Numbered from the stretch's first letter, positions 3,666 to 29,097 are shown. The stretch is DNA of 64,000 nucleotides from a bacterium (GCA_029555085.1 JAKPTO010000014.1:567-64566), one strand, 5' to 3'. Program-made: numbers and translations. The notes: generated from the letters alone by a model not told the origin.

Positions 3666-3687
3666 AAGCCATAAATTATTAAAACTA

Positions 3688-7409: not shown

Positions 7410-7418
7410 TTTTTAAAA

Positions 7419-7817: not shown

Positions 7818-7845
7818 TTTGTTTTAAATTGACATAATTATTAAA

Positions 7846-7870
7846 ATATGCTAATAAAATATTAGCATAT
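7846..7870. promoter_or_regulatory. 25-bp perfect palindrome (candidate operator) in the divergent speH / GNAT promoter region
   Basis: atatgctaataaaatattagcatat lies between a TTGACA (7829-7834) and -10-like hexamers, upstream of the AAGGAGGA SD and the ATG at 7902. Confidence 0.4.
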
Positions 7871-7901
7871 TAATTATAGTATAAAATTAAGGAGGAGTAA
7901 A

Positions 7902-8510
7902 ATGACAAAGAAAAAAAATAATCTTCTGTCTAAAATTTATTTGCTTCTTTTTTGGATAAGGAAAGTAAAAAACAATAGGGACAAAGATTTATTCGCTGAT
8001 TTGTGGCAAAAAACTTGGCTTGATCAAGGATATGCCACGGAAACAACTTTAGCAGAATTAATAAAGCATTATCGCAAATATGATGAGTTTGCGGAAGACT
8101 TTATTCTTTATTTTCTTGGTAAACCAATTGGAACCATAAGATTAATTATTGGTAAATTATTGCCAGTTGTTGAAGATTTTGAAGTCGAGAGTCAATATAA
8201 AGATATCGCTAATATGGAAATCACACTAATGACTCTTGATCGTAAATTTCAAAGACATGATCATTTAGCATCTTTACTACTTATGAGAGTTTTTTATAGA
8301 TTTGCAATAAAAAACAAATTCTATGGAGCTGTCATGGCAACAGATGCTAGATTATTTAAACTTTTGAACATCATGGGTTTTCACATGATCAAAATTGGTC
8401 CTGAGAAATTCTATGAAGGTTCAATAACAATTCCGGCTTATATTGATCTTAGAGAGACAGAAAAAAAAGTCTCGAAAAGAAATCCGGATTTGTACAAATT
8501 TTTTTCATAA
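7902..8510 (+). CDS. GNAT-fold acyltransferase-like protein (possibly N-acyl amino acid synthase/autoinducer-synthase-like)
   Basis: 202 aa; strong SD; general similarity to the GNAT/acyl-transferase fold (FEVES...ITLMTLD...LLL...A.K....GF); family assignment tentative. Confidence 0.4.
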   Translation: MTKKKNNLLSKIYLLLFWIRKVKNNRDKDLFADLWQKTWLDQGYATETTLAELIKHYRKYDEFAEDFILYFLGKPIGTIRLIIGKLLPVVEDFEVESQYKDIANMEITLMTLDRKFQRHDHLASLLLMRVFYRFAIKNKFYGAVMATDARLFKLLNIMGFHMIKIGPEKFYEGSITIPAYIDLRETEKKVSKRNPDLYKFFS

Positions 8511-8537
8511 GAGACGAACTAGTTCGTCTCTTTTTAT
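8511..8537 (+). terminator. rho-independent terminator
   Basis: gagacgaact/agttcgtctc perfect palindrome followed by TTTTTAT. Confidence 0.7.
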
Positions 8538-8567
8538 ATACTCGTAAGTTTTAATTTTAAAATAAAA

Positions 8568-8591
8568 AATTGCCACTATTAATAGGCAATT
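8568..8591. repeat. R module: hairpin (aattgcc-N10-ggcaatt) flanked by A- and T-tracts; second copy at 19404-19431
   Basis: ~45 nt (8561-8606) ~85% identical to 19397-19441; looks like a bidirectional terminator; marks one boundary of the GC-rich island. Confidence 0.55.
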
Positions 8592-8831
8592 TTATAGATC
8601 ATCGTGTTAGTACGAAATGGAGGTGTTTGTTGGATAAATTTTAGACCTTTTTTGAAGAAAATTCGGATTTGGAATTTTGAATGCTCTATTCCGTTGCCAC
8701 TCGCTGTTCCGCAAAAAATCATTCTTCGTAATTTTTATTTTATGCACACTCGATGCCATTTAGTGATCGCTTTTTAGATTGCTCTATTATAGGTTATCAT
8801 TTTTCTAAATTCATATTTTTATATAATTTAC

Positions 8832-11800
8832 TTATGCTTGTTTTTGACTATATTCATTATAGAGCACCTGAACCTCTTCCTTAGTTTTTAAACGTGGATC
8901 ATCTATCAATTTAATTTTTTTAGAGCTACCATTCACAGTGCGTTCGTATACAATTGTATGTGTTTTTATTTCTTGACCTTCCACAATCAGTGTGTAGTCA
9001 TTTTCTCGCACCTCAGTCGGAACAAAACCAGTTTTCTCCACAAGTTTTCTTGATGGAAGATTGATTTCAGAAACTCGAACCCGAAGACCTTTAAAATCCG
9101 GGATAGTATTTTTGGCGAAATCAAATATTTTGTTAATTGTTTCTGTTGCTACGCCCCTACCTTGCATTTCCGGAGTCAAGAACATACCACCTATATTGTA
9201 AAATCCAGGATTGTTTGGCAACTCATACAAAGCACTCAGACCTATTATCTCATCTTCTGTGTCGCGAAGTGCCCATTTGTAGTCAACGGTTTTTTCATCT
9301 TGTTTCTTTATGCGTTCTTTGAGAGCAAAATATGGGTAAAAAACATTGGAATTTTTTTCTGCCACACGATCAAGGTGCACGCGTTCAGCACGTGTTGTTT
9401 CAGTATAGTCATTGATACTACCGAAAGTAGTCACCATCTCCCCTGATTTAAATTTTGCTCCATAACCAACTTCATTCATAACTCGCTCAATGAGTTGTGT
9501 TGTTTGCGCGACCCATTCAACAGCATAAGCATTTGTTTTAAGTTGTCCATTCGCATCAAGCAACAAAGTACGGTCATTTTCGTTTGGTTCATTGCCAATT
9601 TTTATAACAGATTCATCTCGAATACCGTGCGTTTCTTCTAAAAAGGCAAGTGCAGTAGATTTATTTATTCCACGCATTACTAAATCTAGTTGCTCGCCTC
9701 TATTAGTTGTAATAACATCAAGTCCAAGCGATTCTGCCAATTGTTGAATTTGAGATATCTCATCTTCCAAACCTACGCGTGATACTTTAATACCTTCATC
9801 ATTTAAATCATAGAACGCGATATTGATTCTACGTTCATTGTTGTGAATATCAGCCAAAATATTTTCTCTGGAAAGCAGTGATTGAAGTCTGGTTATTTTT
9901 ATATCAATTTCTTCAATAGTAAAATTTTGAACTAGTTCACCGTTGTGATAATATGCCGCTCCGGTATCGGCACTAATCTCAAAATTAGCCGGATTCATTC
10001 CATTGGTTTCCAAGATTTCAGCAATAGAATCGTATTGTTTTCCCGAGCTAATCACAACCATAACACCGCGTTCATTAAGACGTTGTAATGATGCTACTGT
10101 TTTTGCGTTTATAAACCCTCCGTCTTCAAGTGTGCCGTTTAGATCCAGTATCACCGCTTTTGGTTTTTCTGTAAAAAATTGTTTGTCTTCTTCTTGTTCT
10201 TGCATTTCATAAGCTATACACAATTTACATAATTCAGAAAAATCATTCGCCAACTCTTGTAAGTTTCTGTTTTCAAGACCGTGAGATAGGTACTTTTTAC
10301 AAATTCGGACGAATTCACTATGAATAGGTTCAGGAATGCCTACATTTTTGTTTTGTATTGCGTCTAATTCTTTTTCAGGATATGGAAGGTTGCGCAATAC
10401 CTCCGTAGAATTAGCGGATTTTACTTGCAGTGGGAACATGCCAGGATTTGTTTTATATATTTTTTGAACTAATACACCTAGAATACGCATCATTTGCTTT
10501 GCTTCATATACTTGCTTGTCGCCCTCGTATAAAGGATCAATAATGCGATACGTCCCATCTTGCTCAACCATCACATTTCGTAAATTGAATTGACCAGCAA
10601 CGACGCCTCTTTCATGCAAGGAAGCAATATCCTTAATAACAGCTGAGATTTCTTTTAAAAACACAACCCATTCTTGTGGCTCTTTCATCTCGGCAACAAT
10701 ATCCTCTGCTTGATGGCCTTTAATAAGTTCCATAATGAGCATATTGCGTTCGCGGTCATATTCATAACATTGCGGAAAACGATTAGCCAAATCGCCGGCT
10801 TGTTGTTGTAATGCTTGAGTGTATTGATATTCTTCATCCAAATATTGCAAACCGATTTTAATAGCAACCTTTTTACCACTTTCCTCATTAATTGCTTCAA
10901 AAACTTTGGATTCCTTTCCTAAGCCAAGCATTTTTGAGAATTGATATTTCTTCCCATCTATAATAAGTCCGCCTTTTTGTTCAAAAATGGACATCCAGAT
11001 AGCTCGTTCTTGTGCAACAAAATCTTTAAATAATTTATCTTTTCGGTTTTCTGGAAAATTTAATCGTTGCCACACCTCCAGTAAACTTTGAAAATCTTTT
11101 GTGATTATTGGATGACCGGATTCGTGTCGCATACCGGTTATTCTACCAGCAATGCCATCGGCAAATTCAGGTAATCCGATCAAGACGCTGACAGTTTCTC
11201 CATTTTCTTTGGTTGCTGACAGAACAAACTGATTAAACATGTGTGAAATAGAGTACTCTGTCCAACGCTCAAACGGAATGGCGCGATATATTGATTCAAT
11301 ATCTGTATACACCTGAGGATTACAATAGTTTTCTACGGTTATTTTATTTTTCATATGTTCAAAAACTGCAATATCAATAACCCCATTTTCGTAATTTTGT
11401 AGTGCTGTATGCAACAGCTCTGTCCCAATAATATATGTCGCGACTTGTTCATCTTCTGGCCGTTTACCAAATACCGTGGTAATATCTAATGCTTCCAATA
11501 ATTTTATTTTTGAAATAAATCTTTTTACATTTTTATCGCACTGCTCTCCGTCTGGTAAGCCAAATTCCATGAGTTGATTGTTTGTAATCATTGACTTTAG
11601 AAACATCTCTCTTTGTTTAAGTAGTTGTTCACCTCTCTCAGTATATTCTATGGTTGCATTACCAAACTCACCGACATTTACTGAATATTCTTTATCCCTA
11701 ATGATTTGGCGATAGAAACTTAAAAGCATTCTAGAAAGCTCAAACTCTATTGATGATGCGTCACGTTCAGGACTGCCATTTATATCAATTAGTTGAATAT

Positions 11801-13919
11801 TGCCTTCTTGATCCATTAAAATATTTCCGAAATGTAGATCACCGTGAGTGAATTCAGGTATAACTGAATCGGAAAAATCACGATCAAGCATAGGAGTTGA
11901 TTTTTTTACCCACTCAAGCAACGTGCTCATATTAACTCGTGTTTCGCCGTTTATTTTTATTAGCTCATGGCGAGCAAATTCTTGTAAATTTTTATCGTCA
12001 ATATTTTGTAAGAACTCAAGACCGCGTTCAATTGAAGAAAGATGATGATCGGAAAAATATCGATCTTCCACATGTTTTTCTCCTTTTGACCACAGTTCTC
12101 GTTTTAAATCCATAAAAAGATTATTAAATTCGTTTTGTGTCACCTCTCTAGTTGGTTTTTTTCCAAAGTATTGGTCATCAAGCGAACCACCTTCAATAAA
12201 GGGTGATACATAATATACTTCATCATCTTTCACATTGCTATCAATCAATTCAGGTATAATGGAAATACCAACTTTCTGCATCTGACAGGTTCGTTGGATT
12301 TGTCGCAACAAATGTTCGTATTGATTTCCATACGGCGCTCTTTTTATGACAAATTTTTTACCTTGCTCGTTTTCCATAATGCTGACTGATGCGCCCATTG
12401 ATGTGCGTTTGTCCAAATTTCCTTCCTCGACCGGTTTTAATTGCTCATAGTAAAAAGGGTAATCATATTCTTCTATATAACGTGGGATGTATACATTATC
12501 TGAATCTCGCATCTGTTTATGTCCAAGAGGAATCCATTTATATCGTTCATTGCCATTTTTATCTCGCTTCAGAGCGCGGGTTGTCAATCGATGATGTGGA
12601 AAATAATCCCAACCGGGAACGAGCTGAAAGTTCATTTTTTTTGAGGTTCCATTTACGGTAATAGGTACAGCAGAAGGATTGAAGTCCAAAATACCCCGTC
12701 CATATTTTCCACCAGCATACTTTATTTCATTAAAGGCGCGATAATAAAATGCCATTCTTTTAATGTATTCTTCTTTGGAGTGTTTAGTATTAAACATATC
12801 TGGAGAAAGTGTTCCACGATAAAACGACATCCAACTTTCAAGACTGCCCAATATATCAATGGATTCTATAAGTTCGTCCAGTTCTGTCGCTTGATTTTTT
12901 TGCAAAGCATCTTCTATTTCCAAATTTTTTCGCTCTTCTTGCTTTTCCTTCATGATTTTCATAAGAATGCTGAACAGTTCCCCGTTTTCTCGCAGAGTAT
13001 CAATTGGGCTTTGATCGTCTTTAATATCTGGTATATTGAATTTAGCAAATTCGGAACGATGAGAAGAGATGTATTTGTTTATCTTGGTGACGGCTGATTC
13101 ATATTGTTGCTGTACGGTATCTTTTTTTTCTCTTAGACGATATTGCCATTTTTTTTCGTCCTGATCTTCAACATTTATCAAACATCGTCTTACTAATTCC
13201 GCCGCGTCAATAATTTTAACCGGATTTTCTCTATTATCCATATCTTCTTTGTTGCGACCGGACTGAGCATATGCCTGCTCATTAAGTTTTTCTAAAATTT
13301 TAAGCGTTTCCTGTGTCTCGTCTTGGTATCTTCCCAATGCACGATATAAATTACCTTCATATCCAATATTAATTTGCAGGCCAGGTGAATAAATCGTTTC
13401 TGCGCCACGTGCGATTTGTTGCAAGTTGGAAAAAGCGAGATAATTTGCCATATCAGGCAAGAGTTGTCTATCAGAAATGTCCGGATTTTTAAATTTTGGA
13501 GAAAATGAAAGGCCAAAAAAAACAATAGGTTGATTTTCTCTTATGGCTTCAACCATCGTGTGTATTATATTGGCGTCGTATTCTGGACTTCTATATGTAC
13601 TGCCAGTTCTTCGTATTTCCCCTGGACGTCCAGATAAATATTCAAGCAGAGCAACAGCTGTTACCTCGGGTGTTTTTTCAAATTCTCGTTTTTCTAAATT
13701 AGTAAGACCCTCAGGAGTATATTTTTCATAATATGATCGTAGAGAATCCTTAATGCGTCTGGAAATCTGTCCAGGAAATATCGTACTTTCGGGAATAAAA
13801 GGAGGTTTGTACTCGGGAGTTGTTGGGTATTCATTAATTTTATGTGATTCGTGGTTTTGCTCGATTATTTTTTGTTCTTGTTCTTTTTGTTGGTAATGTA
13901 AAGCATTTTTTTCTAGCAT
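8832..13919 (-). CDS. giant multidomain protein: PvcA/Dit1 isonitrile-synthase-like domain + APH-like kinase + second kinase-like domain + HAD hydrolase + C-terminal GNAT
   Basis: 1695 aa. aa~120-470: QPIVFFGLSFSPKFKNPD...LLPDMANYLAF...IYSPGLQINIGYEGNLY aligns by eye with PvcA QPIHFILPAFPAKSPNP...LPDMGEQVAL...VYAPGARITICSDGRVF. aa~505-720: THGDLHFGNILMD...LIDINGSPE (APH/choline-kinase Brenner motif). aa~990-1150: LGLGKESKVF...KKVAIKI glycine loop + VAIK but catalytic loop reads VVAGQFNLRN (no HRD Asp). aa~1254-1465: VILDLNGTL...VISSGK...INKST...GNEPNEND (HAD motifs, DxN not DxD). aa~1520-1660: GGMFLTPEMQGRGVATE GNAT motif A. Higher GC than flanks. Confidence 0.6.
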   Translation of the reverse strand: MLEKNALHYQQKEQEQKIIEQNHESHKINEYPTTPEYKPPFIPESTIFPGQISRRIKDSLRSYYEKYTPEGLTNLEKREFEKTPEVTAVALLEYLSGRPGEIRRTGSTYRSPEYDANIIHTMVEAIRENQPIVFFGLSFSPKFKNPDISDRQLLPDMANYLAFSNLQQIARGAETIYSPGLQINIGYEGNLYRALGRYQDETQETLKILEKLNEQAYAQSGRNKEDMDNRENPVKIIDAAELVRRCLINVEDQDEKKWQYRLREKKDTVQQQYESAVTKINKYISSHRSEFAKFNIPDIKDDQSPIDTLRENGELFSILMKIMKEKQEERKNLEIEDALQKNQATELDELIESIDILGSLESWMSFYRGTLSPDMFNTKHSKEEYIKRMAFYYRAFNEIKYAGGKYGRGILDFNPSAVPITVNGTSKKMNFQLVPGWDYFPHHRLTTRALKRDKNGNERYKWIPLGHKQMRDSDNVYIPRYIEEYDYPFYYEQLKPVEEGNLDKRTSMGASVSIMENEQGKKFVIKRAPYGNQYEHLLRQIQRTCQMQKVGISIIPELIDSNVKDDEVYYVSPFIEGGSLDDQYFGKKPTREVTQNEFNNLFMDLKRELWSKGEKHVEDRYFSDHHLSSIERGLEFLQNIDDKNLQEFARHELIKINGETRVNMSTLLEWVKKSTPMLDRDFSDSVIPEFTHGDLHFGNILMDQEGNIQLIDINGSPERDASSIEFELSRMLLSFYRQIIRDKEYSVNVGEFGNATIEYTERGEQLLKQREMFLKSMITNNQLMEFGLPDGEQCDKNVKRFISKIKLLEALDITTVFGKRPEDEQVATYIIGTELLHTALQNYENGVIDIAVFEHMKNKITVENYCNPQVYTDIESIYRAIPFERWTEYSISHMFNQFVLSATKENGETVSVLIGLPEFADGIAGRITGMRHESGHPIITKDFQSLLEVWQRLNFPENRKDKLFKDFVAQERAIWMSIFEQKGGLIIDGKKYQFSKMLGLGKESKVFEAINEESGKKVAIKIGLQYLDEEYQYTQALQQQAGDLANRFPQCYEYDRERNMLIMELIKGHQAEDIVAEMKEPQEWVVFLKEISAVIKDIASLHERGVVAGQFNLRNVMVEQDGTYRIIDPLYEGDKQVYEAKQMMRILGVLVQKIYKTNPGMFPLQVKSANSTEVLRNLPYPEKELDAIQNKNVGIPEPIHSEFVRICKKYLSHGLENRNLQELANDFSELCKLCIAYEMQEQEEDKQFFTEKPKAVILDLNGTLEDGGFINAKTVASLQRLNERGVMVVISSGKQYDSIAEILETNGMNPANFEISADTGAAYYHNGELVQNFTIEEIDIKITRLQSLLSRENILADIHNNERRINIAFYDLNDEGIKVSRVGLEDEISQIQQLAESLGLDVITTNRGEQLDLVMRGINKSTALAFLEETHGIRDESVIKIGNEPNENDRTLLLDANGQLKTNAYAVEWVAQTTQLIERVMNEVGYGAKFKSGEMVTTFGSINDYTETTRAERVHLDRVAEKNSNVFYPYFALKERIKKQDEKTVDYKWALRDTEDEIIGLSALYELPNNPGFYNIGGMFLTPEMQGRGVATETINKIFDFAKNTIPDFKGLRVRVSEINLPSRKLVEKTGFVPTEVRENDYTLIVEGQEIKTHTIVYERTVNGSSKKIKLIDDPRLKTKEEVQVLYNEYSQKQA

Positions 13920-14045: not shown

Positions 14046-14097
14046 ATATTATTTTTATTTTCTCACAATTCAAACAAAAAGTAAAATAAAAAAATCG
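14046..14097 (-). promoter_or_regulatory. L module: sigma70-like promoter (TTGAAT-N16-TAATAT on minus strand) upstream of the giant gene; near-identical copy at 19359-19405
   Basis: ~50 nt atattattttt(t)attttctcacaattcaaacaaaaagtaaaataaaaa repeated ~5.3 kb apart, each 65-180 nt upstream of a minus-strand start codon (13919 and 19288). Confidence 0.5.
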
Positions 14098-14120
14098 CTC
14101 TCAAAAAAGCGATTATTATT
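14087..14120 (-). terminator. rho-independent terminator for the mod-res-rSAM transcript
   Basis: minus-strand atcgct-tttttgag-agcgat hairpin followed by a T7 run, ~90 nt downstream of the radical-SAM stop. Confidence 0.55.
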
Positions 14121-14205: not shown

Positions 14206-15198
14206 TTATTTCCTTACAAAAGTATTACAAGTGGAACAAGGAATGTCCACTAGATCTTTATTATTTGAATGAATTAATTTTTTGGAGAAAAAATTTCTTG
14301 AAAGTTTATAATATTTATTATTCCAAATATCTTTCAATTTTTGATTCAATATATTTCCATAAGAAAATCTATCAAAGTCCCCTCCGCAACATGGATACAA
14401 GCTTCCATCTGGTCTTATCATGCATCCTAAATATAACCAAAAACAAGTTCGTTTATATGTTTTTGTTTTAGGGCTATCATTATTATCATCATATCCCAAA
14501 TTTTCTTGTCTATATGTAATTCTGTCTACTTTTATTTCTCTCAAAAATTCATCAATCTGATTTAACTCGTCTTTTATATGATTAAAAGTGACAACCTGAA
14601 CATCTACAATGGGATATTTCTTTTTGTTTTTTATTTTATACTCCATTACATCCCTTAAGCCCTGTTTTACAATTTCTACATCTCCACCTTGTCTATACTG
14701 AGAGTATTTCTCTTGTGAAAAACCATCCAAACATGGTTCTAATACTGTAAGACCTGAGTCAAATAATTTTTTAATATCATCTTTTTTAAATAGATTAAAG
14801 TTTGTACTAATAAGAGTGCTTATGTTATTTTTGTTTGCATAAGATATCATCTCATATATATCTTTGTTTAGAAGTGGTTCGCCCATATCATACAATGATA
14901 CACGAAGCGCGTATTTTTTTATTTTATCAATAATACTTTTAAAATCTTCTAGTGTCATTATTCTTTTTTCTTTTGTATTGGTCTGCCATGACTGACACGA
15001 TGGGCATCTTAAATTGCACGCAGAACATGGATCTATTCTATAAATAAATGGCCTCGAGATACACCTTCCTCGTCTAAATGTCATTTCAAGAAATGAAATA
15101 ATAACATTTATGGCCTTAGTAAATGTCAAAAATGGGAGTAATGAAAAAAAATGTCTTTTAATGAATAAACCTAGCTTATTATAAAATGAAAGCTTCAT
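14206..15198 (-). CDS. radical SAM protein with SPASM/twitch-like Cys-rich C-terminus
   Basis: 330 aa; CNLRCPSC radical-SAM cluster motif (within CSACNLRCPSCQ); C-terminal CFWLYLGC...YPCCGGD...CSTC Cys cluster pattern; N-terminal hydrophobic segment; same strand as and downstream of mod-res. Confidence 0.6.
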   Translation of the reverse strand: MKLSFYNKLGLFIKRHFFSLLPFLTFTKAINVIISFLEMTFRRGRCISRPFIYRIDPCSACNLRCPSCQSWQTNTKEKRIMTLEDFKSIIDKIKKYALRVSLYDMGEPLLNKDIYEMISYANKNNISTLISTNFNLFKKDDIKKLFDSGLTVLEPCLDGFSQEKYSQYRQGGDVEIVKQGLRDVMEYKIKNKKKYPIVDVQVVTFNHIKDELNQIDEFLREIKVDRITYRQENLGYDDNNDSPKTKTYKRTCFWLYLGCMIRPDGSLYPCCGGDFDRFSYGNILNQKLKDIWNNKYYKLSRNFFSKKLIHSNNKDLVDIPCSTCNTFVRK

Positions 15199-15371
15199 AG
15201 AATTACTTGTTAATAAAATTTATTAAAATATTTAATGCTAATTAATATATTAACTTAAAAAAATTTTCAAGTAAAGATGAATCAATAATCTTTTGTATAT
15301 TTGGGACATCCTTGATCCCCAATGATCTGCGTAATTTATAAAAAATCGTTTTTAAAATAATAATTATTTAG

Positions 15372-15533
15372 CTAGTTATTTATGGTGGTGTGCGTTCGAA
15401 AAAATTTGAACTGATTTTGCTCAAAATTTATATGGCTGACGAAAATCCCCTCCCAATCCTCTTCCTTTTTGTCCACCTGCCTAGGCTTCGCTCCTAAAAC
15501 TCTTGGGCAAGATATTTTTTTGGTGTAATTCAT
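15372..15533 (-). CDS. possible small ORF (53 aa) in GC-rich res-rSAM intergenic region
   Basis: manual translation MNYTKKISCPRVLGAKPRQVDKKEEDWEGIFVSHINFEQNQFKFFRTHTTINN; no clear SD; below the ORF-track length cut-off; could equally be a gene remnant. Confidence 0.2.
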   Translation of the reverse strand: MNYTKKISCPRVLGAKPRQVDKKEEDWEGIFVSHINFEQNQFKFFRTHTTINN

Positions 15534-15569
15534 AAAGTTAAATATATCTCTTCATGCACTCGCTAAATT

Positions 15570-17708
15570 TCACATAGTTACCTTCTTACAAAAGTTCACA
15601 AACTCGTCTTTTGATAATAATTTTTCGTTACCTTCCACATACTGAAAAATACGCCATTTATCATCTCGCAAAATCGGTAAATAAAATATCTGATTGGTTA
15701 GTTTAGAAGCTTGTTTATATGCTTTTTTCAATTCTTCCAACTTCGTTTTATAGATATTATTATCAAAACCCCCGACCATATTTGCAGAAATATTTACACT
15801 TTTTACTTCAAAAATATGTATTCTATTAAAGCTGTCTTTCATCACAAAGTCTGGATATGAAGAATGCGGTGCGCCGAGATAATACTCAAACTTTATCGGC
15901 GAGTTTGCCACATAATTTTTACCCCACAGATACACTTGTTTCGTATCTAAAAACTCTGGTTCTGTTTCTCCAAATAAATCAGTTGCTCCGGCTTTTGGAT
16001 TCTTCCTCCCAACTGTTACTCTTTTACCAACTCGTCCATCGCCAACCGCTACATCATCTTTTGCAAGGTCCTTTAAGATACTCGTCCACGCACGCTCCGC
16101 TTCACTATCAAATGCAAACTTCTCTTTGCCGTCATTGCGTTTCCATACCCAGTCGCCAATATCTACATAATTGCCGTTGTCGGTGTAATGTGAAGTCAGA
16201 GCAAAGGAAACTTCTACTTCTTTTCCGTTTTCGTCTTTTACTACTTCCATGCTTTTCTCATAATCATTCACATATTGACTGCTTTCATTTGCTACGGTAT
16301 CAATATTTTCCACAAACTCACGCCATTTTGTATAAGTCGTCGCATAATTTTCGCCCATTTCTCGCACGCTGTTTTCGGCTTTCACAAAATTTCTCCATAA
16401 AGAAAAAATAGAACTCGGAGTAGATACGATTGATTGTTTTTTCAAGAATGTCGTTAGATTAAAACTGGCCTTTTTGGTCAAGGATTTTAACCGTGTTGTC
16501 TTAATTTTGATCTCATTAGTAATAATTTCGCTATCTTGCCACAATTTCACGCCAAAACTTTTTCGCAAGTCTCCGGGAACAATGCCCCAAATCCATGCGG
16601 TCATAGCTAGTCTTTGTGCGTCTTCTGATAATGATTCAAAATCAAGTAGTCGCGGGTTCCGTCTTACTCGCCCCATCACTTGCTCATCCAATTGCTTACT
16701 CTTACTATCCCGTATTTGAAAAAGCATACAGGCGCGTGGAATATCCCACCCCTCAGTAATCACCATTTTGAAAATGATAATATCAATCGTACTTGAATTT
16801 TCTTTTGCATAATCTTTCCACTTGCTCACAGGCAACTTTTTGGCCTTAAAAGTGTCGTTGGTGTCGCATTGCTTCTCGTTATTAACAATTAGCATCCACT
16901 TTAGATCCGTGTGTTCAGCTTTTTCCAGTTCCTTTTTAATCTCGGCAATTTCAGCATCCGCTTTGTCTTTGTTGCTAATCTGGATAATTAGACATGGGTT
17001 TACGCCCAGCATGTTGCGGTAATCTTTTTTTATTTCTTCAAACTTCGTAATCGCATCAGTCACTTTGGCATCAGGGTCGTCAACCAACTCAATATCTTTG
17101 ATCAGTTTCGCATTTACCGCGTCATCGTTTTTAATCTCAACATCAGGGTGTTGTCCACGCGAAAGTTTTGGCGTGGCAGAGAAGTTGTATATTTTGGTAA
17201 AGAATTTTTCTGATAAACTATCCAGATTGTTGGTGGCAATATGGCACTCGTCTTTTATTAAATAGACTTTTTTATCCAAGCCACCTATCAATTCCGTCCC
17301 AGTTACTGTGCGTAAAAATCCTTCCATTGCTCCTTGCATCAGTCGTCCGCCTTTTTTATATAAATCGCGAGGTAAAAGATAAACATTATAGTCGGTTGGC
17401 ACAAACAATCTCTCTTCACCTGCAATTTCGCTACTAATTAAATATGGCTTCAATTCCGGAAAATTTCCTTTTACTGAGTATTGTTGAAACTTCTCATAAT
17501 TTTGTGTGGCGAGATCGCCTTTTGAAAGTGTAGAAACAAGAAAAATCACATTTTTATCAGCTGATAAAATGCGGTTCATCATATCCGCCATCATATAGGT
17601 TTTACCACTTCCTGTTGGCGCTTTGAAAGTTATCTCATCTTGTGCAGAGGTGAGTTCAACAAGAGAAGTGACGGCGTTTTGCTGTAGGTCTATTGCTTCT
17701 TGTTTCAT
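15570..17708 (-). CDS. res: Type III restriction enzyme Res subunit (SF2 helicase + C-terminal PD-(D/E)xK nuclease)
   Basis: 712 aa; Walker A APTGSGKT, DEAH-like LIKDECH, C-terminal PDFVMKD...IFEVKS nuclease motif; start 2 nt after mod stop. Confidence 0.75.
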   Translation of the reverse strand: MKQEAIDLQQNAVTSLVELTSAQDEITFKAPTGSGKTYMMADMMNRILSADKNVIFLVSTLSKGDLATQNYEKFQQYSVKGNFPELKPYLISSEIAGEERLFVPTDYNVYLLPRDLYKKGGRLMQGAMEGFLRTVTGTELIGGLDKKVYLIKDECHIATNNLDSLSEKFFTKIYNFSATPKLSRGQHPDVEIKNDDAVNAKLIKDIELVDDPDAKVTDAITKFEEIKKDYRNMLGVNPCLIIQISNKDKADAEIAEIKKELEKAEHTDLKWMLIVNNEKQCDTNDTFKAKKLPVSKWKDYAKENSSTIDIIIFKMVITEGWDIPRACMLFQIRDSKSKQLDEQVMGRVRRNPRLLDFESLSEDAQRLAMTAWIWGIVPGDLRKSFGVKLWQDSEIITNEIKIKTTRLKSLTKKASFNLTTFLKKQSIVSTPSSIFSLWRNFVKAENSVREMGENYATTYTKWREFVENIDTVANESSQYVNDYEKSMEVVKDENGKEVEVSFALTSHYTDNGNYVDIGDWVWKRNDGKEKFAFDSEAERAWTSILKDLAKDDVAVGDGRVGKRVTVGRKNPKAGATDLFGETEPEFLDTKQVYLWGKNYVANSPIKFEYYLGAPHSSYPDFVMKDSFNRIHIFEVKSVNISANMVGGFDNNIYKTKLEELKKAYKQASKLTNQIFYLPILRDDKWRIFQYVEGNEKLLSKDEFVNFCKKVTM

Positions 17709-17710
17709 AA

Positions 17711-19288
17711 TTATTCGTCTTCAAGAGTTTTTTGTGTATTTTCAAAATTTTCACACACCCATTTTATTTTTTCTTTTACTCCAAGTTTTTCCTGCCCGTA
17801 CAAAGTTTCATCTATTTTTTCAAATGGTTCGTCAGAGTACGGTGCTACAGTGGCAATATCATAAACATCAAGATTGCCGTCGAGTGGTTTATTTTTCTCG
17901 TTCCACTTAAAATCTTTACTTCCGTCATAACATTCACCAGTCATTACTCGTTTGAGACGTTTGCTTGTTACATCATTCACAATTCCGTTTGGTGTGGTGT
18001 CGGTTATCTCATTGGCAGTGGCAAGAATAAACTGTCTTTTTCCACCATCTTCCTTATTAAGTTCCAGTACTGCTTGCCCAGTTGTCCCTGAACCAGCAAA
18101 GAAGTCGAGGATAATTAAATTTCTGTTAACTAAACCAATTAAATATTTGATTAGTGATATAGGTTTTGGGTTATCAAATATATTATTTTCTATTATGCTT
18201 ATCAATTCCTTCCCACCATCTTCATTTGTCCCAACCCCACATTCTTCTTTATTTATTATATTTGACGGTTTTTTCTTTCTTTCTCCCTCTCTTTCATACC
18301 TTATAGAGAATTCATTACTTTTTATATAAAATACTGTGCCATTTTTAACCTCTTTGTCTACTGTCTCTTGAGTCCATTTAAAATTACCTCTCAACTCAAA
18401 GTCCTTATCTGCTTTACCGTTTGCTATATTTATATTAGTTAGAAGTTGAGTTTTCTTTTTATAACCATCTTTAAATTCCCCATTAATCTTAAAAATAACA
18501 GAATCCTTATTAAATTTTATTGTTCGTATTGGGTTTCCACTGTTTAACAATGGCATATCTCCACCTACTATTATACCCGCACTCAAACCCTCGTCTCTTT
18601 TTCCATTTTGATAACATAAGACATATTCATATTTTTTTCTTATATCTTTACCCAAGCTGGGGGGGGTAGCGGTTTTATTCCACATAAAATTTGCTAAGAA
18701 ATTACTCTCCTCGAATACCTCATCAAAAAGCCCCTTTACATACGCTTGATTTTTATCATCAATACTACAAAAGATTACCCCATTATCACTTAAAAGCTGT
18801 CTAGCAAGAACTAGGCGCGGATAAAGCATAGAAAGCAGGTTGTCTCTCGTGATGGCATTGTTGTAATTTGTCTGTGCAAACTCTCCCATAGAGTCCTTGC
18901 CATATGGCGGATCAATATAGATCACATCAATCTTTCCGCGGTATTCAATCAGCAAATTGAGAAGTGCATCATAGTTATCTCCGATGATGAGTTTGTGTGT
19001 TTGTGCGTTCTTGTCTTGTACAAAACTCAATTCATTGTTTTTCTTAAAATACTTTATCGTGTCGGTCATTTTCTCCAGTCGTTTGTCAAAGTGAAAGCCT
19101 GTGCGTTTATATGTTGTTCCAAGCTCGGCGATCATAATCGCTTCATTGATAGTATCTGTATTTGTAATGAGTTTTTTCAAGAGATCAGCATTCGTTTTTT
19201 CTATAATCTTGTCGGCAATACGTTTATCTATCTCGGTTATGAGATCGTCTTTAACTTTTCTTATATTGTTTGTTGTAGTATCTTTCAT
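17711..19288 (-). CDS. mod: Type III R-M Mod DNA methyltransferase (beta-class, N6A/N4C)
   Basis: 525 aa; motif IV IDPPYGKD precedes motif I ILDFFAGSGTTG (beta-class order as in Type III Mod); contains a C8/G8 tract. Confidence 0.8.
   Translation of the reverse strand: MKDTTTNNIRKVKDDLITEIDKRIADKIIEKTNADLLKKLITNTDTINEAIMIAELGTTYKRTGFHFDKRLEKMTDTIKYFKKNNELSFVQDKNAQTHKLIIGDNYDALLNLLIEYRGKIDVIYIDPPYGKDSMGEFAQTNYNNAITRDNLLSMLYPRLVLARQLLSDNGVIFCSIDDKNQAYVKGLFDEVFEESNFLANFMWNKTATPPSLGKDIRKKYEYVLCYQNGKRDEGLSAGIIVGGDMPLLNSGNPIRTIKFNKDSVIFKINGEFKDGYKKKTQLLTNINIANGKADKDFELRGNFKWTQETVDKEVKNGTVFYIKSNEFSIRYEREGERKKKPSNIINKEECGVGTNEDGGKELISIIENNIFDNPKPISLIKYLIGLVNRNLIILDFFAGSGTTGQAVLELNKEDGGKRQFILATANEITDTTPNGIVNDVTSKRLKRVMTGECYDGSKDFKWNEKNKPLDGNLDVYDIATVAPYSDEPFEKIDETLYGQEKLGVKEKIKWVCENFENTQKTLEDE
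18659..18666. repeat. G8 (coding-strand C8) homopolymer inside mod
   Basis: ctgg+gggggg read directly; encodes ...ATPPS...; highly unusual in a ~27% GC background. Confidence 0.8.
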
Positions 19289-19358
19289 AGTTTTATTTCA
19301 TTAAATCATCAGTTTTTATTTCAAAGTTTTTTTGCTATATTTATTATGTTTATTATTA

Positions 19359-19441
19359 CAATATTATTTTTTATTTTCTCACAATTCAAACAAAAAGTAA
19401 AATAAAAATTGCCATTTAATAGACAATTTTATATATCATTG
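19359..19441. repeat. composite L+R module (promoter for mod operon plus hairpin) immediately downstream of tRNA-Ser
   Basis: L part 19359-19405 matches 14046-14097 (TTGAAT-N17-TAATAT on minus strand); R part 19397-19441 matches 8561-8606. Confidence 0.55.
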
Positions 19442-19453
19442 TGATAATTGTTT

Positions 19454-19545
<92 letters not shown>

Positions 19546-19583
19546 AATATCGTATATATGAGTATATTTTTTCGTTAATTTAT

Positions 19584-19658
19584 TGGCTGGGGAGGTAGGG
19601 TTCGAACCTACGCATGTCGGCTTCAAAGGCCGATGCCTTACCACTTGGCTACTCCCCA
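19584..19658 (-). tRNA. tRNA-Gln (anticodon UUG), CCA encoded
   Basis: revcomp TGGGGAGTAGCCAAGTGGTAAGGCATCGGCCTTTGAAGCCGAC...GGTTCGAACCCTACCTCCCCAGCCA; closely resembles canonical bacterial tRNA-Gln. Confidence 0.8.
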
Positions 19659-24225: not shown

Positions 24226-25212
24226 TTAATCTTTCGTATAATAGTTATTTATATCAAATGGAACATCGTCCTCATCTTTTACTATATTTTTAAAAGGGTT
24301 TTCTTTTGTTTCACTTTTAATTTCTTCTGGACTTTTTATTTCTTCTTGTTCGTTATAAATTTTTCTATATTTTGACGAATAATCATTCATTGTTTGATTC
24401 GCGTGTGATTGCATTAGTTTCATTGTTTCTTTTACAACTTTTTCTGTGGTTTCTTTTATTATTACTTCGATATTTTGAGGAATCGATGTTTTGCTTCTTC
24501 TTGCTAATAAATTGTTTGCTTCAAGCCAGGTATCAATTGATTCCCCTCCATCTGCCCACCAACCAGGAATAATATCATATTTCATGGTTCCTTGCTGAAT
24601 ATAAAAATTATTTACATCAGTAATTTCTAATTCGCCACGACCAGATGGTTTTAGATTTTTTATTACATCCCAAACTTGATTATCATATAAATATAGTCCA
24701 GTAACAGCTAAATTGCCAATAAATTGTTTTGGTTTTTCTACAATTTCTATAATTTTGTCTTTTTCTATTCGAGCAACTCCATAATGTTCTGGATGCTCAA
24801 CTTCTTTTAAGAAAATTCTTGCACCAATCGGAGTTTTTTCGAATGTTTCTATTGTTGTTGTTAAATTGTCTTCAAAAATATTGTCCCCTAACACAACAAC
24901 CATTTTATTATCACCAACAAAATCTTTTGTAAGTGATAGCGCCTGAGCAATTCCTCCGGCTTCTTCTTGTATTGCATAAGATAAATTAACTCCAAATTCA
25001 TGACCAGAACCAAGTAATTCTAAAAATCCTCCAGCGTGTCCCCTGCCTGAAACAATCATTATGTCTTTTATGCCCGCATCACGAAGTGTTTCTATTGGAT
25101 AATAAATCATCGGTCTATCGTAAACAGGAAGTAAATGTTTGTTTGTTATTTTTGTAAGTGGATGTAGTCTTGAGCCTGTTCCACCGGCTAATATTACCCC
25201 TTTTAATTTCAT
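24226..25212 (-). CDS. rmlA: glucose-1-phosphate thymidylyltransferase with ~90-aa low-complexity C-terminal extension
   Basis: MKLKGVILAGGTGSRLHPLTKITNKHLLPVYDRPMIYYPIETL typical RmlA N-terminus. Confidence 0.8.
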   Translation of the reverse strand: MKLKGVILAGGTGSRLHPLTKITNKHLLPVYDRPMIYYPIETLRDAGIKDIMIVSGRGHAGGFLELLGSGHEFGVNLSYAIQEEAGGIAQALSLTKDFVGDNKMVVVLGDNIFEDNLTTTIETFEKTPIGARIFLKEVEHPEHYGVARIEKDKIIEIVEKPKQFIGNLAVTGLYLYDNQVWDVIKNLKPSGRGELEITDVNNFYIQQGTMKYDIIPGWWADGGESIDTWLEANNLLARRSKTSIPQNIEVIIKETTEKVVKETMKLMQSHANQTMNDYSSKYRKIYNEQEEIKSPEEIKSETKENPFKNIVKDEDDVPFDINNYYTKD

Positions 25213-25424
25213 ATTATTTTCTCCCCAGCTTTAAACCATTAGATTTTAACTTTTGGTTTTTGGCTTTATATTTATTTTTTTAAGTTTAATATATCTTAGG
25301 TTAATATCTATAAATTTGCAAGCGATTTTTGATATTTTTTATCCACTTGACTTTTTTTTCATTTCTTGTATAATATACAAGTTAGGATAAATAAAATAGA
25401 TATATAATACATAGGAGGATAAAG

Positions 25425-25610
25425 ATGTTTCTTCCCAATTCATCACAGGACGCACCGGATACCAAATGCCCGGTGTGTAATATTGTCTGGAGATTTGGGG
25501 GAACCAAATCCCAGGGAGAATTTTTAGAAATTTGTCCTGCTTGCAAAGAAAAGCAGGACAAAAAAATCCCCCAGGGGAGCTTGCCCCTGGAGGGCACAAA
25601 AAATAATTAG
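25425..25610 (+). CDS. small zinc-ribbon protein (61 aa), compositionally atypical
   Basis: strong SD AGGAGGA 6 nt before ATG; CPVC...CPAC; followed by GGCGC-TTCG-GCGCC-TTTTT terminator; GC much higher than neighbours. Confidence 0.5.
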   Translation: MFLPNSSQDAPDTKCPVCNIVWRFGGTKSQGEFLEICPACKEKQDKKIPQGSLPLEGTKNN

Positions 25611-25628
25611 GCGCTTCGGCGCCTTTTT
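25609..25628. terminator. rho-independent terminator (serves small ORF and convergent rmlD)
   Basis: ggcgc-ttcg-gcgcc + T5. Confidence 0.7.
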
Positions 25629-25636
25629 GCTTTATA

Positions 25637-26476: not shown

Positions 26477-26477
26477 T

Positions 26478-27998: not shown

Positions 27999-28002
27999 AA
28001 GT

Positions 28003-28413: not shown

Positions 28414-28516
28414 AGATTTAATTATTTAATGATGATTTTTGAATTTATAATAAGTTATTAAATTGTTTAATGTTCAAATTTATTCAAAGTTTAGTAATTA
28501 AAACTTAAAACCCAAT

Positions 28517-29089: not shown

Positions 29090-29097
29090 ATTTTTTT

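What the first reader, a model, noticed from the sequence alone, without database searches (positions are those of the whole stretch)
14206..19288. Type III R-M (mod-res) co-oriented with a radical SAM/SPASM-like gene in one terminator-bounded cassette
Seen in sequence: the mod stop and res start are 2 nt apart. A 370-nt gap containing a GC-rich patch follows, then a 330-aa radical SAM protein (CNLRCPSC plus a C-terminal Cys-rich auxiliary-cluster-like region). An intrinsic terminator appears only after the rSAM gene. All three genes are driven from the L-module promoter upstream of mod. From established knowledge, Type III systems normally consist of mod and res only. Radical SAM enzymes in defence contexts are known as prokaryotic viperins or 7-deazaguanine (Dpd/QueE) DNA modification. 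This protein fits neither closely: it is longer than QueE and has SPASM-like cysteines. Inference: the rSAM may be a co-transcribed accessory of the R-M system, making an additional nucleic-acid modification or nucleotide-derived antiviral molecule. Alternatively it may be an unrelated peptide-maturase gene whose precursor has been lost.
Basis: partly seen in the sequence, partly recalled or inferred. Interest (0 to 1): 0.7.

Follow-up and report, generated by a model that had tools for sequence, protein, structure and literature searches.

The report
Mobile restriction system beside unrelated radical-SAM gene
A horizontally acquired, phase-variable Type III restriction-modification gene pair sits next to a sugar-enzyme-like radical SAM gene in a small-genome (probably CPR) bacterium, and the evidence points to chance adjacency in a tRNA-side variable region, not a three-gene defence system.

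Summary
Every sequence observation was reproduced. These are mod (525 aa), a 2-nt spacer, res (712 aa), a 371-nt gap with a GC-rich patch, a 330-aa radical SAM protein (CNLRCPSC), and one terminator-like hairpin after it.

The proposed functional link is not supported.
- **The R-M pair moves alone.** DNA homology to the same mod-res pair in another genome (85.5% over 3.8 kb) runs from window 19311 to 15513. It stops 57 nt after the res stop, before the GC patch and the rSAM. Res has more than 100 homologues at 75-91% identity across CPR lineages. Four other contexts carry mod-res and none has the rSAM.
- **The rSAM occurs without R-M.** Its family is conserved at 42-87% identity across phyla. 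No mod or res homologue turned up in any of about 58 rSAM-homologue loci, including 19 loci of its own family. The only recurrent neighbours there are glycosyltransferases and Wzy polymerases.
- **Composition differs.** mod and res have atypical GC3 (z = 2.4 and 3.5); the rSAM is host-like (z = 0.7).
- **The rSAM resembles BtrN.** Its four invariant C-terminal cysteines align with BtrN's auxiliary-cluster cysteines. It is neither a viperin nor QueE.

New observations: a perfect 41-nt direct repeat brackets mod-res-rSAM beside tRNA-Ser, and a poly-C tract in mod varies (C7/C8/C9) between assemblies. Ordinary overall; low to moderate interest.

The parts
19455..19658 (-). tRNA-Gln(ttg) 19584-19658 and tRNA-Ser(tga) 19455-19544, directly upstream of the inserted block. 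A strong promoter-like site (19709-19681) precedes them.
   Evidence: ARAGORN; Rfam tRNA 71 and 57 bits; promoter scan
19368..19408 (.). Copy A of the perfect 41-nt direct repeat, between tRNA-Ser and mod
   Evidence: 100% identical to 14052-14092, with about 8 further nt matching after a 1-nt indel. Logan contigs L007-L009 begin inside this copy and L008/L009 end at copy B; that pattern fits repeat-induced assembly breaks.
19289..19311 (-). Left edge of the mobile R-M module. The module's DNA homology begins 23 nt upstream of the mod ATG and keeps only the last ~18 nt of the HTH (controller-like) gene that precedes mod in two of the other genomes (L071/L072 and L073).
   Evidence: blastn to L071; sequence comparison; HTH_3/HTH_31 genes upstream of mod in L071, L072 and L073
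17711..19288 (-). mod: Type III beta-class DNA methyltransferase. DPPY is at residue 126 and FAGSG at 397, with the variable target-recognition region between them (DNA 18120-18699 is not conserved with L073/L074).
   Evidence: Pfam N6_N4_Mtase 3.6e-30; PADLOC MTase_III 2.4e-71; motifs; homology gap
18659..18666 (-). Poly-C tract (C8 on the coding strand, codons T-P-P at residues 208-210). Its length varies between assemblies and shifts the mod frame.
   Evidence: C7 in L078 and L009, C9 in L007, C8 in the window and in L076 and L077, with mod split into about 215 + 314 aa in the variants. It is the only G/C run of 7 or more in the 64 kb. The L071 orthologue has ACT CCT CCA at the same codons.
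15570..17708 (-). res: compact Type III restriction subunit. Helicase motifs are GSGKT (33), DECH (153) and QVMGR (343). A C-terminal PD(619)...EVK(634) motif is nuclease-like.
   Evidence: Pfam ResIII 2.5e-15; PADLOC REase_III 1.3e-21; motifs; more than 100 homologues at 75-91% identity
15513..19311 (-). Extent of the horizontally mobile mod-res module, as defined by DNA homology
   Evidence: 85.5% identity over 3817 nt to L071/L072. Contigs L004 and L006 from independent assemblies start at 15515. GC3 z = 2.4 for mod and 3.5 for res against 45 other ORFs.
15199..15512 (-). Non-coding stretch upstream of the rSAM, outside the R-M module. It contains the unexplained GC-rich patch (about 15450-15512) and an AT-rich stretch with a weak promoter-like TTGAAA-N17-TATTAA about 45 nt before the ATG.
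   Evidence: no Rfam match; no homologue in the fetched loci; fold z = -0.42; promoter-like site by eye, below the scan's criteria
14206..15198 (-). Radical SAM enzyme with a BtrN-like twitch/partial-SPASM domain and a conserved two-helix N-terminus. It belongs to an uncharacterised, sporadically distributed family.
   Evidence: host-like composition (GC3 z = 0.7)
14093..14114 (-). Intrinsic-terminator-like hairpin after the rSAM. Its T-run is the start of repeat copy B.
14052..14092 (.). Copy B of the 41-nt direct repeat, upstream of the 1695-aa gene
8832..13919 (-). Neighbouring 1695-aa multidomain protein (DIT1/PvcA-like, APH-like kinase, Ser/Thr kinase, HAD-IIB, GNAT). It lies outside the 41-nt repeat but inside an older 31-nt, 87% repeat (8579-8609 / 19416-19446).
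   Evidence: GC3 z = 1.8

Best explanation
The block holds two unrelated things placed side by side in a variable region downstream of tRNA-Ser. Shown and inferred steps are marked.

**1. Window 15513-19311: a self-contained, horizontally mobile Type III R-M module**
- Mod methylates its target sequence. Res, in complex with Mod, translocates on and cuts unmethylated DNA. This is inferred from family membership.
- Shown: the same module circulates among CPR/Patescibacteria genomes, sometimes on elements that carry a serine recombinase.
- Shown: this copy has lost the small HTH controller-like gene.
- Shown: it has gained a C8 tract in mod whose length differs between assemblies. Inferred: this switches the whole system ON and OFF, because Res depends on Mod.

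**2. Window 14206-15198: a resident-looking radical SAM enzyme**
- Shown: it has one auxiliary [4Fe-4S] site of the BtrN (twitch) type.
- Shown: its family turns up repeatedly in cell-surface glycan gene clusters.
- Inferred, with moderate confidence: it performs a radical oxidation or rearrangement on a sugar or sugar-like small molecule for envelope glycan synthesis.

**Relationship between the two**
The gene order mod-res-rSAM reflects insertion history, not shared function. Read-through transcription from res into the rSAM may still occur, because no terminator separates them. A perfect 41-nt direct repeat brackets all three genes. The last rearrangement here therefore duplicated that site, most simply by integration of a circular piece at a short identical site. 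The pieces may have arrived together physically.
For: **From the R-M side**
- DNA homology to L071/L072 ends at 15513, which is 57 nt past the res stop.
- Independent assemblies break at 15515.
- Res has more than 100 homologues at 75-91% identity, including Pacebacteria, Uhrbacteria and Saccharibacteria MAGs.
- In L071, L073, L074 and L082, mod-res is followed by unrelated genes and never by an rSAM. The genes downstream in L071 and L073 are not even homologous to each other.
- Serine recombinases lie beside the module in L071 and L082.

**From the rSAM side**
- The closest orthologues (82-87% aa, Komeilibacteria-type genomes) sit between an M10 peptidase and a 533-aa unknown protein, with no R-M.
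- DNA identity to these orthologues is confined to the ORF plus about 20-35 nt upstream.
- phmmer with the window's mod and res against ORFs of about 58 homologue loci gave no hit.
- Among 119 neighbours of 18 same-family loci, the top Pfam families are GT4/GT1 glycosyltransferases (9), methyltransferases (6) and TPR.
- No PADLOC MTase or REase family recurs in two or more of those neighbours.
- BLAST clustering puts GT4 in 4 loci and Wzy_C in 4 loci. L015 and L017 are plain polysaccharide clusters.
- The window itself has a glycan region at 24-42 kb.

**Composition**
- mod GC3 z = 2.4, res z = 3.5, rSAM z = 0.7.

**rSAM fold**
- A PDB profile search puts BtrN first (6e-20). All four BtrN auxiliary-cluster cysteine positions align with the family's invariant C252, C270, C321 and C324.
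- The AlphaFold2 model has pLDDT 88. Its top structural matches are BlsE, SuiB, BtrN and DesII.

**Phase variation**
-.
Against: - The 41-nt perfect repeat encloses the rSAM together with mod-res. The three genes may therefore have been acquired as one piece.
- No terminator was detected between res and the rSAM, so co-transcription is not excluded.
- Every strain-level contig recovered carries all three genes. No R-M-free 'empty site' was found.
- Only four other R-M contexts could be examined.
- The neighbour tables list only families matching at least two members. A single R-M gene among the 119 neighbours would have been caught only by the phmmer search.
- The glycan association holds in only about 5 of 16 independent family loci.
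- The sugar-substrate inference rests on distant similarity (about 17% identity to BtrN and BlsE; TM-score about 0.6).
Confidence: 0.78

Rival explanations
1. The rSAM is a lineage-specific accessory of this Type III system. It would be co-acquired in the repeat-bounded 5.3-kb cassette and co-transcribed with it, adding a DNA hypermodification or producing an antiviral nucleotide.
For: - The genes are co-oriented, with no terminator until after the rSAM.
- A perfect 41-nt direct repeat encloses exactly mod-res-rSAM.
- All strain contigs keep the three genes together.
Against: - No co-occurrence was found elsewhere from either side.
- The R-M module's homology ends before the rSAM.
- Composition differs between the two.
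- The family is conserved at 55-63% identity in MAGs labelled Brocadia, Planctomycetota and Eisenbacteria, whose loci carry no such R-M, and at 46-48% in cyanobacteria.
- The closest solved relatives are small-molecule or peptide enzymes, not nucleic-acid enzymes.
Confidence: 0.07
2. The rSAM is a RiPP (peptide) maturase whose precursor gene has been lost or is too small to notice.
For: - There is a SPASM Pfam hit.
- SuiB, CteB, SkfB and anSME appear among the structural and profile matches.
- NCBIfam gives weak hits to sactipeptide and mycofactocin maturases.
Against: - No RRE/PqqD domain was detected. The N-terminus is only two conserved helices.
- Only four invariant auxiliary cysteines are present, enough for one cluster, whereas SPASM maturases have two.
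- All NCBIfam hits fall far below their cut-offs and cover only the core.
- There is no recurrent small ORF, transporter or peptidase partner. Instead the recurrent neighbours are glycosyltransferases.
Confidence: 0.05
3. The rSAM works with the adjacent 1695-aa multidomain enzyme (isonitrile-synthase-like, kinases, HAD, GNAT) and the FeeM-like acyltransferase, as a small-molecule biosynthetic island.
For: - They are adjacent and co-oriented, and all lie in the same variable region inside the older 31-nt repeat.
- Contigs L004-L006 carry the rSAM, the giant gene and the FeeM-like gene together.
Against: - A terminator and the 41-nt repeat separate the rSAM from the giant gene.
- phmmer with the giant protein found no real homologue near any rSAM-family locus, only one weak hit (1.1e-8) to a 171-aa ORF in distant locus L049.
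- Composition differs.
Confidence: 0.06
4. The rSAM is a stand-alone viperin-like or QueE/Dpd-like defence enzyme that merely shares a defence island with the R-M system.
For: - PADLOC pVip models hit at 3.7e-10.
- Viperin structures appear in the fold search at about 2e-9.
- The region also holds an R-M system and a kinase domain resembling PD-T4-6.
Against: - The pVip hit covers only profile positions 8-131 of 257, which is the generic core.
- Viperins rank below BlsE, SuiB, BtrN, DesII and anSME and lack a twitch domain.
- The QueE model scores 33.7 bits against a 260-bit cut-off.
- No dpd or queC/D genes lie nearby.
- High cross-phylum conservation and glycan-cluster contexts are atypical for defence genes.
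Confidence: 0.03

Closest known systems
Type III restriction-modification systems (EcoP15I/EcoP1I type), including phase-variable mod genes ('phasevarions') of Haemophilus, Neisseria and Helicobacter
   Same: - mod lies directly upstream of res, with a 2-nt spacer.
- Mod has the beta-class motif order DPPY - variable TRD - FxGxG.
- Res has SF2 helicase motifs and a C-terminal PD...ExK motif.
- The TRD is the non-conserved part between relatives.
- A homopolymer tract in mod changes length between populations. This is how phase-variable Type III mod genes work (established knowledge).
   Different: - Res is compact: 712 aa against about 970 aa for EcoP15I Res (the EcoP15I length is from memory).
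- The host appears to be a CPR/Patescibacteria bacterium. A literature search surfaced no paper joining 'phasevarion' with CPR terms among its top hits.
- The usual upstream HTH gene of this module has been lost.
- Activity and target sequence are untested.
BtrN (2-deoxy-scyllo-inosamine dehydrogenase, butirosin pathway), the founding 'twitch' radical SAM enzyme
   Same: - It is the best PDB hit to the family profile (6e-20), in two segments: the core and the twitch domain.
- Cysteines at all four BtrN auxiliary-cluster positions align with the family's invariant C252, C270, C321 and C324. A shared GNI...IWN motif is also present.
- One auxiliary cluster is expected, not two.
   Different: - Sequence identity is only about 17%, and TM-score is 0.53-0.69.
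- This family has an extra conserved two-helix N-terminus and is about 80 aa longer.
- No butirosin or aminoglycoside genes lie nearby. The neighbours are glycosyltransferases and Wzy polymerases.
- The substrate is unknown.
BlsE and DesII (radical SAM enzymes acting on nucleotide-linked sugars)
   Same: - BlsE is the top Foldseek match (3e-13) and DesII scores 1e-11.
- Both appear in the profile search.
- A weak NCBIfam BlsE hit exists (2.7e-9).
- A sugar-nucleotide substrate fits the glycan-cluster contexts.
   Different: - Identity is low (14-17%).
- The NCBIfam BlsE score is 36.9 bits against a 400-bit cut-off.
- There are no blasticidin or desosamine pathway genes.
Prokaryotic viperins (pVips) and QueE/Dpd 7-deazaguanine systems
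   Same: They share the radical SAM core (CxxxCxxC) and can occur in defence islands.
   Different: - Only the core matches: pVip profile positions 8-131 of 257, and QueE at 33.7 bits against a 260-bit cut-off.
- This protein has a twitch domain that viperin and QueE lack.
- No dpd or que genes lie nearby.

Membership tests
Type III restriction-modification system | Mod is a beta-class N6-adenine/N4-cytosine methyltransferase with motif IV (DPPY) before the TRD and motif I (FxGxG) after it | tested here: met
   DPPY at residue 126 and FAGSG at 397; Pfam N6_N4_Mtase 106 bits against a 26.7-bit cut-off; PADLOC MTase_III 2.4e-71
Type III restriction-modification system | Res has SF2 helicase/ATPase motifs plus a C-terminal PD-(D/E)xK nuclease motif | tested here: met
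   GSGKT 33, DECH 153, QVMGR 343, PD 619 ... EVK 634; Pfam ResIII 57 bits against 22.5; PADLOC REase_III 1.3e-21. The nuclease motif was identified by pattern only.
Type III restriction-modification system | mod lies immediately upstream of res, co-oriented in one operon, and the pair is conserved as a unit | tested here: met
   2-nt spacer; the same pair appears in L071-L075 and L082
Type III restriction-modification system | ATP-dependent cleavage of DNA with unmethylated, inversely oriented sites; hemimethylation by Mod | not testable with these tools
   Requires enzymology or a methylome
Phase-variable Type III mod (phasevarion) | A simple repeat inside the mod ORF whose length varies within the population and shifts the reading frame | tested here: met
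   C8 in the window; C7 (L078, L009) and C9 (L007) in independent assemblies, each splitting mod. It is the only G/C run of 7 or more in 64 kb.
Phase-variable Type III mod (phasevarion) | ON/OFF switching changes global methylation and gene expression | not testable with these tools
   Needs a methylome and transcriptome of ON and OFF populations
Radical SAM superfamily | CxxxCxxC motif and a partial TIM-barrel core | tested here: met
   C61/C65/C68 are invariant in 28 sequences; Pfam 61 bits against 29.5; AlphaFold2 model pLDDT 88 with alternating strand/helix core
SPASM subfamily (two auxiliary clusters) | Full seven-cysteine motif CX9-15GX4C ... CX2CX5CX3C ... C | tested here: not met
   Only C252-X12-G265-X4-C270 and C321-X2-C324 are invariant, and there is no CX5CX3C. 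The Pfam SPASM domain model still scores above its cut-off.
Twitch (BtrN-like) radical SAM enzymes | A truncated SPASM domain with four cysteines ligating a single auxiliary [4Fe-4S] cluster | tested here: met
   All four align with cysteines in BtrN's twitch domain. That these are the cluster ligands in BtrN is from memory of the BtrN structure paper.
Twitch (BtrN-like) radical SAM enzymes | BtrN's own reaction (DOIA dehydrogenation) and butirosin gene context | tested here: not met
   No aminoglycoside genes appear in any of the 19 family loci. The reaction itself is not testable here.
Prokaryotic viperin (pVip) | Full-length match including the C-terminal nucleotide-binding extension, with no auxiliary cluster | tested here: not met
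   The PADLOC pVip hit covers profile positions 8-131 of 257 only. The protein carries a twitch domain, and viperin structures rank below sugar and peptide rSAMs.
QueE / Dpd 7-deazaguanine DNA modification | A score above the QueE model cut-off, with dpdA-C or queC/D neighbours | tested here: not met
   TIGR03963 scores 33.7 bits against a 260-bit cut-off. No such neighbours are in the window.
RiPP radical SAM/SPASM maturase | An N-terminal RRE (PqqD-like) domain and an adjacent precursor peptide gene | tested here: not met
   No PqqD/RRE Pfam hit at E<=0.01. The N-terminus is two helices. No recurrent small-ORF, peptidase or transporter partner was found.
   0 of about 58 rSAM-homologue loci and 0 of 4 other mod-res contexts

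The most novel reading that the evidence does not exclude
The 5.3-kb segment bounded by the perfect 41-nt repeats (mod-res-rSAM) is a unit that was acquired, and can be lost, as one piece. In this lineage the BtrN-like rSAM would have been recruited to the Type III system, for example by being read through from res. It would then add a radical-chemistry DNA or nucleotide modification that broadens or protects restriction.
Probability: 0.05. Interest if true: 0.75.

Novelty: new member of a known kind. Interest (0 to 1): 0.25.

Why it matters
The main value is negative. This case shows how co-orientation plus a shared terminator can suggest an operon when the genes have separate histories. Homology breakpoints and neighbourhood surveys from both sides resolved it.

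Three smaller points could interest specialists:
- A highly conserved compact Type III R-M module is spreading among CPR/Patescibacteria. Here it carries a length-variable poly-C tract. If this is a true phasevarion, it would extend epigenetic phase variation to ultra-small episymbiotic bacteria.
- An uncharacterised, cross-phylum BtrN-like twitch radical SAM family is linked to surface-glycan loci. It is a tractable target for enzymology.
- The tRNA-Ser flank shows nested direct repeats (41 nt at 100%, 31 nt at 87%), suggesting stepwise accretion of foreign genes without a resident integrase.

Tried and rejected
- **Search for an R-M-free 'empty site'.** Two metagenome scans, one for the 41-nt repeat core and one for the GC patch, returned nothing. 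They did not even return the JGI contigs known to hold these sequences, so the collection evidently lacks them. A look-up with the L9 protein returned only R-M-bearing strains.
- **Res variant P0121.** It proved to be a low-coverage (1.7x), error-ridden contig and was uninformative.
- **The 250-aa rSAM calls in L076 and L078.** I suspected pseudogenisation. The DNA is identical to the window, so it is only a different start-codon call. Rejected.
- **The GC-rich patch.** It gave no Rfam hit at E<=1, no stable structure, and no homologue by blastn or tblastx in any fetched locus. A 15-nt match inside the Komeilibacteria M10 peptidase gene has E = 0.3. The patch remains unexplained.
- **Phage carriage.** There was no blastn match for the R-M module in GenBank phages, and only one weak partial rSAM hit. 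One IMG/VR contig carries the module, but it looks like an integrative element with a serine recombinase and an rve transposase.
- **Literature.** Searches for rSAM with Type III R-M, for twitch rSAMs in polysaccharide loci, and for phasevarions in CPR found nothing directly relevant.
- **Logan contigs spanning exactly repeat to repeat (L008, L009).** I considered them as evidence for a circular excised form. I rejected this because a 41-nt repeat longer than the assembler's k-mer (Logan uses k = 31, from memory) produces the same pattern.

Full report
**1. What is in the sequence**

All relevant genes are on the minus strand. In transcription order they are:
- ribosomal protein L9 (19740-20201; Pfam L9 N and C domains)
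- tRNA-Gln (19584-19658) and tRNA-Ser (19455-19544)
- mod (17711-19288, 525 aa)
- res (15570-17708, 712 aa)
- a 371-nt non-coding gap
- a radical SAM gene (14206-15198, 330 aa)
- a terminator-like hairpin (14114-14093)
- a 1695-aa multidomain gene (8832-13919)

- The mod stop and the res start are separated by 2 nt (TAA-TT-ATG).
- The gap is 371 nt and contains a 43-52% GC patch at about 15450-15512, in a 29% GC genome.
- The rSAM carries CNLRCPSC at residues 61-68 and a Cys-rich C-terminus.
- The only minus-strand terminator-like site between mod and the next gene follows the rSAM. The gap RNA has no unusual structure (z = -0.42).

The claim of a single promoter cannot be assessed. The promoter scan finds no more sites than shuffled sequence does (59 against 54).

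**2. Identity of the parts**

*mod and res.* They form a bona fide Type III pair.
- Mod scores 106 bits against Pfam N6_N4_Mtase and 2.4e-71 against PADLOC MTase_III.
- Mod has the beta-class motif order: DPPY (126), then the TRD, then FAGSG (397).
- Res matches Pfam ResIII and PADLOC REase_III (1.3e-21).
- Res has GSGKT, DECH and QVMGR helicase motifs and a C-terminal PD...EVK motif.

*The rSAM.*
- It passes the Pfam Radical_SAM and SPASM cut-offs.
- Every NCBIfam hit is far below its cut-off and restricted to the core.
- In an alignment of 28 family members, only four C-terminal cysteines are invariant: C252, C270, C321 and C324.
- A profile search of the PDB puts BtrN first (6e-20). The printed alignment places those four cysteines on the four cysteines of BtrN's twitch domain.
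- An AlphaFold2 model (pLDDT 88, pTM 0.89) matches BlsE, SuiB, BtrN, DesII and anSME best. Viperins and MoaA rank lower.

It is therefore a twitch-type enzyme, expected to carry one auxiliary cluster. A conserved two-helix N-terminal extension is also present. It is not a viperin, not QueE, and not an RRE-bearing peptide maturase.

**3. Is the rSAM tied to the R-M system? Evidence from the R-M side**

- Res has more than 100 cluster representatives at 75-91% identity. Some are named from Pacebacteria, Uhrbacteria and Saccharibacteria MAGs.
- I examined four other contexts. L071/L072, L073 and L074/L075 came from encoding-contig look-ups. L082 came from IMG/VR.
- All four have mod directly followed by res. 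Two have a small HTH gene in front.
- The downstream genes differ in each context and are never a radical SAM gene. The roughly 250-aa genes after res in L071 and L073 are not homologous to each other.
- Serine recombinases flank the module in L071 and L082.

At the DNA level, the window aligns with L071 at 85.5% identity over 3817 nt, from window 19311 to 15513. The first 60 nt of the 'gap' belong to this module at 94.8% identity. The rest of the gap, the GC patch and the rSAM do not.

Two independent assemblies (L004 from MEGAHIT, L006 from JGI) begin at exactly 15515. This is what assembly graphs do at the edge of a sequence shared between genomes.

The left edge retains only the last ~18 nt of the HTH gene. 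This copy has therefore lost its controller-like gene.

**4. Evidence from the rSAM side**

- The family is sporadic but strongly conserved. Identity is 82-87% in Komeilibacteria-type genomes and 55-63% in MAGs labelled Buchananbacteria, Brocadia, Planctomycetota, Eisenbacteria and 'Gammaproteobacteria'. It is 46-48% in cyanobacteria.
- In the three closest relatives the gene sits between an M10 peptidase and a 533-aa unknown protein, upstream of UvrD, with no R-M genes. DNA identity of 83-86% is confined to the ORF and about 20-35 nt upstream.
- phmmer with the window's mod, res and giant protein against all ORFs of about 58 rSAM-homologue loci (up to +/-10 kb where the contig allows) gave no mod or res hit. 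For the giant protein it gave one weak hit (1.1e-8) to a 171-aa ORF in distant locus L049.
- I scanned 119 neighbour proteins from 18 family loci.
  - The commonest Pfam families were GT4/GT1 glycosyltransferases (9 proteins), class-I methyltransferases (6) and TPR.
  - With PADLOC, no methyltransferase or restriction family recurred.
  - BLAST clustering found GT4 enzymes in 4 loci and Wzy-type polymerases in 4 loci.
- Loci L015 and L017 are typical polysaccharide clusters, with epimerases, flippases, PMT_2, a pyruvyl transferase and Wzy.
- The window itself carries an envelope-glycan region at 24-42 kb, with RmlA-D-like genes, PMT_2, two GT4 and two GT2.

**5. Composition**

Against 45 other ORFs of the window (GC3 0.185 +/- 0.051):

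| Gene | GC3 z-score |
|---|---|
| res | 3.5 |
| mod | 2.4 |
| 1695-aa gene | 1.8 |
| rSAM | 0.7 |

The rSAM's overall GC z-score is 0.0. mod and res look foreign and the rSAM looks resident. Alternatively, the rSAM came from an equally AT-rich donor.

**6. The direct repeats**

A perfect 41-nt repeat (19368-19408 and 14052-14092) brackets mod-res-rSAM-terminator.
- It has only these two copies in the window, and none were expected by chance.
- After a 1-nt indel, about 8 more bases match.
- An older 31-nt repeat at 87% identity (19416-19446 and 8579-8609) brackets this block plus the 1695-aa gene.

The nested arrangement next to tRNA-Ser suggests stepwise accretion of foreign DNA at one site. 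The inner event would be the more recent. This is inference.

Physically, the three genes lie in one repeat-bounded segment and may have arrived together. That shows common carriage, not common function, and it must be weighed against sections 3-5.

I found no integrase in the segment and no empty-site variant.

**7. Phase variation (not part of the original finding)**

- mod contains a C8 tract (plus-strand G8 at 18659-18666; codons Thr-Pro-Pro). It is the only G/C run of 7 or more in 64 kb.
- Otherwise near-identical contigs carry C7 (L078, L009) or C9 (L007), each splitting mod into about 215 + 314 aa. The window, L076 and L077 carry C8.
- The orthologue in L071 encodes the same peptide with ACT CCT CCA.

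This is the classic slipped-strand switch of Type III mod genes. Because Res needs Mod, the whole system should switch off with it. That dependence is established knowledge for Type III systems and is untested here.

**8. Most likely mechanism**

The mod-res pair acts as an ordinary, phase-variable Type III restriction barrier, acquired horizontally.

The rSAM most likely uses a 5'-deoxyadenosyl radical, assisted by one auxiliary cluster, to oxidise or rearrange a sugar or sugar-like substrate for cell-surface glycan synthesis.
- The enzyme class is well supported.
- The substrate class is inferred from distant homology (BtrN, BlsE, DesII) and from a neighbourhood signal seen in about 5 of 16 independent loci.
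- I give the sugar hypothesis roughly 45%, and the broader statement 'not an R-M component' about 80-85%.

Read-through from res may still contribute to rSAM expression.

**9. Verdict**

The proposed functional coupling is not supported by the available comparative evidence.

The locus holds a new member of known kinds: a Type III R-M system and a twitch radical SAM enzyme. Side interest comes from the CPR phasevarion candidate, the uncharacterised rSAM family, and the repeat-bounded accretion site.

Interest is 0.25. The residual novel reading is a lineage-specific rSAM accessory of a Type III system. I give it about 5% probability, and it would be of high interest if true.

Noticed in passing
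window 18659-18666 (within mod, minus strand): A poly-C tract in mod is C8 here but C7 or C9 in other assemblies of the same organism, each frameshifting mod. It is a candidate phase-variable Type III system (phasevarion) in a CPR-like bacterium. The L071 orthologue lacks the tract at the same codons.
   Followed up: yes
window 14052-14092 and 19368-19408; also 8579-8609 and 19416-19446: A perfect 41-nt direct repeat encloses mod-res-rSAM. An older 31-nt, 87% repeat encloses that block plus the 1695-aa gene, all next to tRNA-Ser. This looks like stepwise island accretion with no integrase present.
   Followed up: partly
window 8832-13919 (minus strand): A single 1695-aa protein combines a DIT1/PvcA (isonitrile-synthase-like) region, an APH-like kinase, a Ser/Thr kinase (resembling PADLOC PD-T4-6 and mad6 kinases), a HAD-IIB phosphatase and a GNAT acetyltransferase. 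Its composition is atypical (GC3 z = 1.8). Its function is unknown, and it sits beside a FeeM-like N-acyl amino acid synthase gene (7902-8510, plus strand).
   Followed up: partly
window 15450-15512: A GC-rich patch (43-52% GC) lies immediately outside the R-M module boundary. It has no Rfam match, no stable fold, no coding potential, and no homologue in any fetched locus or metagenome scan. It is unexplained and may be a scar of an earlier neighbour or of the insertion event.
   Followed up: partly
window 19289-19311 versus L071 5388-5411: This copy of the R-M module retains only the last ~18 nt of the small HTH (controller-like) gene that precedes mod in L071, L072 and L073. Its regulation must therefore differ here.
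   Followed up: partly
window 24226-41814: A large envelope-glycan region holds RmlA-like NTP transferase, epimerases/reductases, dTDP-sugar isomerase, a PMT_2 glycosyltransferase, two GT4 and two GT2 enzymes. It is the kind of context in which rSAM orthologues are found elsewhere.
   Followed up: partly
L082 (IMG/VR contig) 1-13332; L071 3070-4575: Homologous mod-res modules sit next to large serine recombinases. In L082 they also sit next to an AAA ATPase + S8 subtilase pair and an rve transposase. These are candidate vehicles for spread of the module among CPR genomes.
   Followed up: partly
L010, L019, L069 versus the window: The rSAM is 82-87% identical to Komeilibacteria-type orthologues, whereas the few other comparable proteins in those loci are only 31-45% identical to window proteins. 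This points to recent horizontal transfer or unusually strong constraint on the rSAM.
   Followed up: partly
window 7823 (junction between the FeeM-like gene and the AdoMet decarboxylase gene): Contigs L003-L005 stop matching the window about 50-200 nt before their ends, all at window position 7823. This suggests another strain-variable junction at the far end of the island.
   Followed up: no
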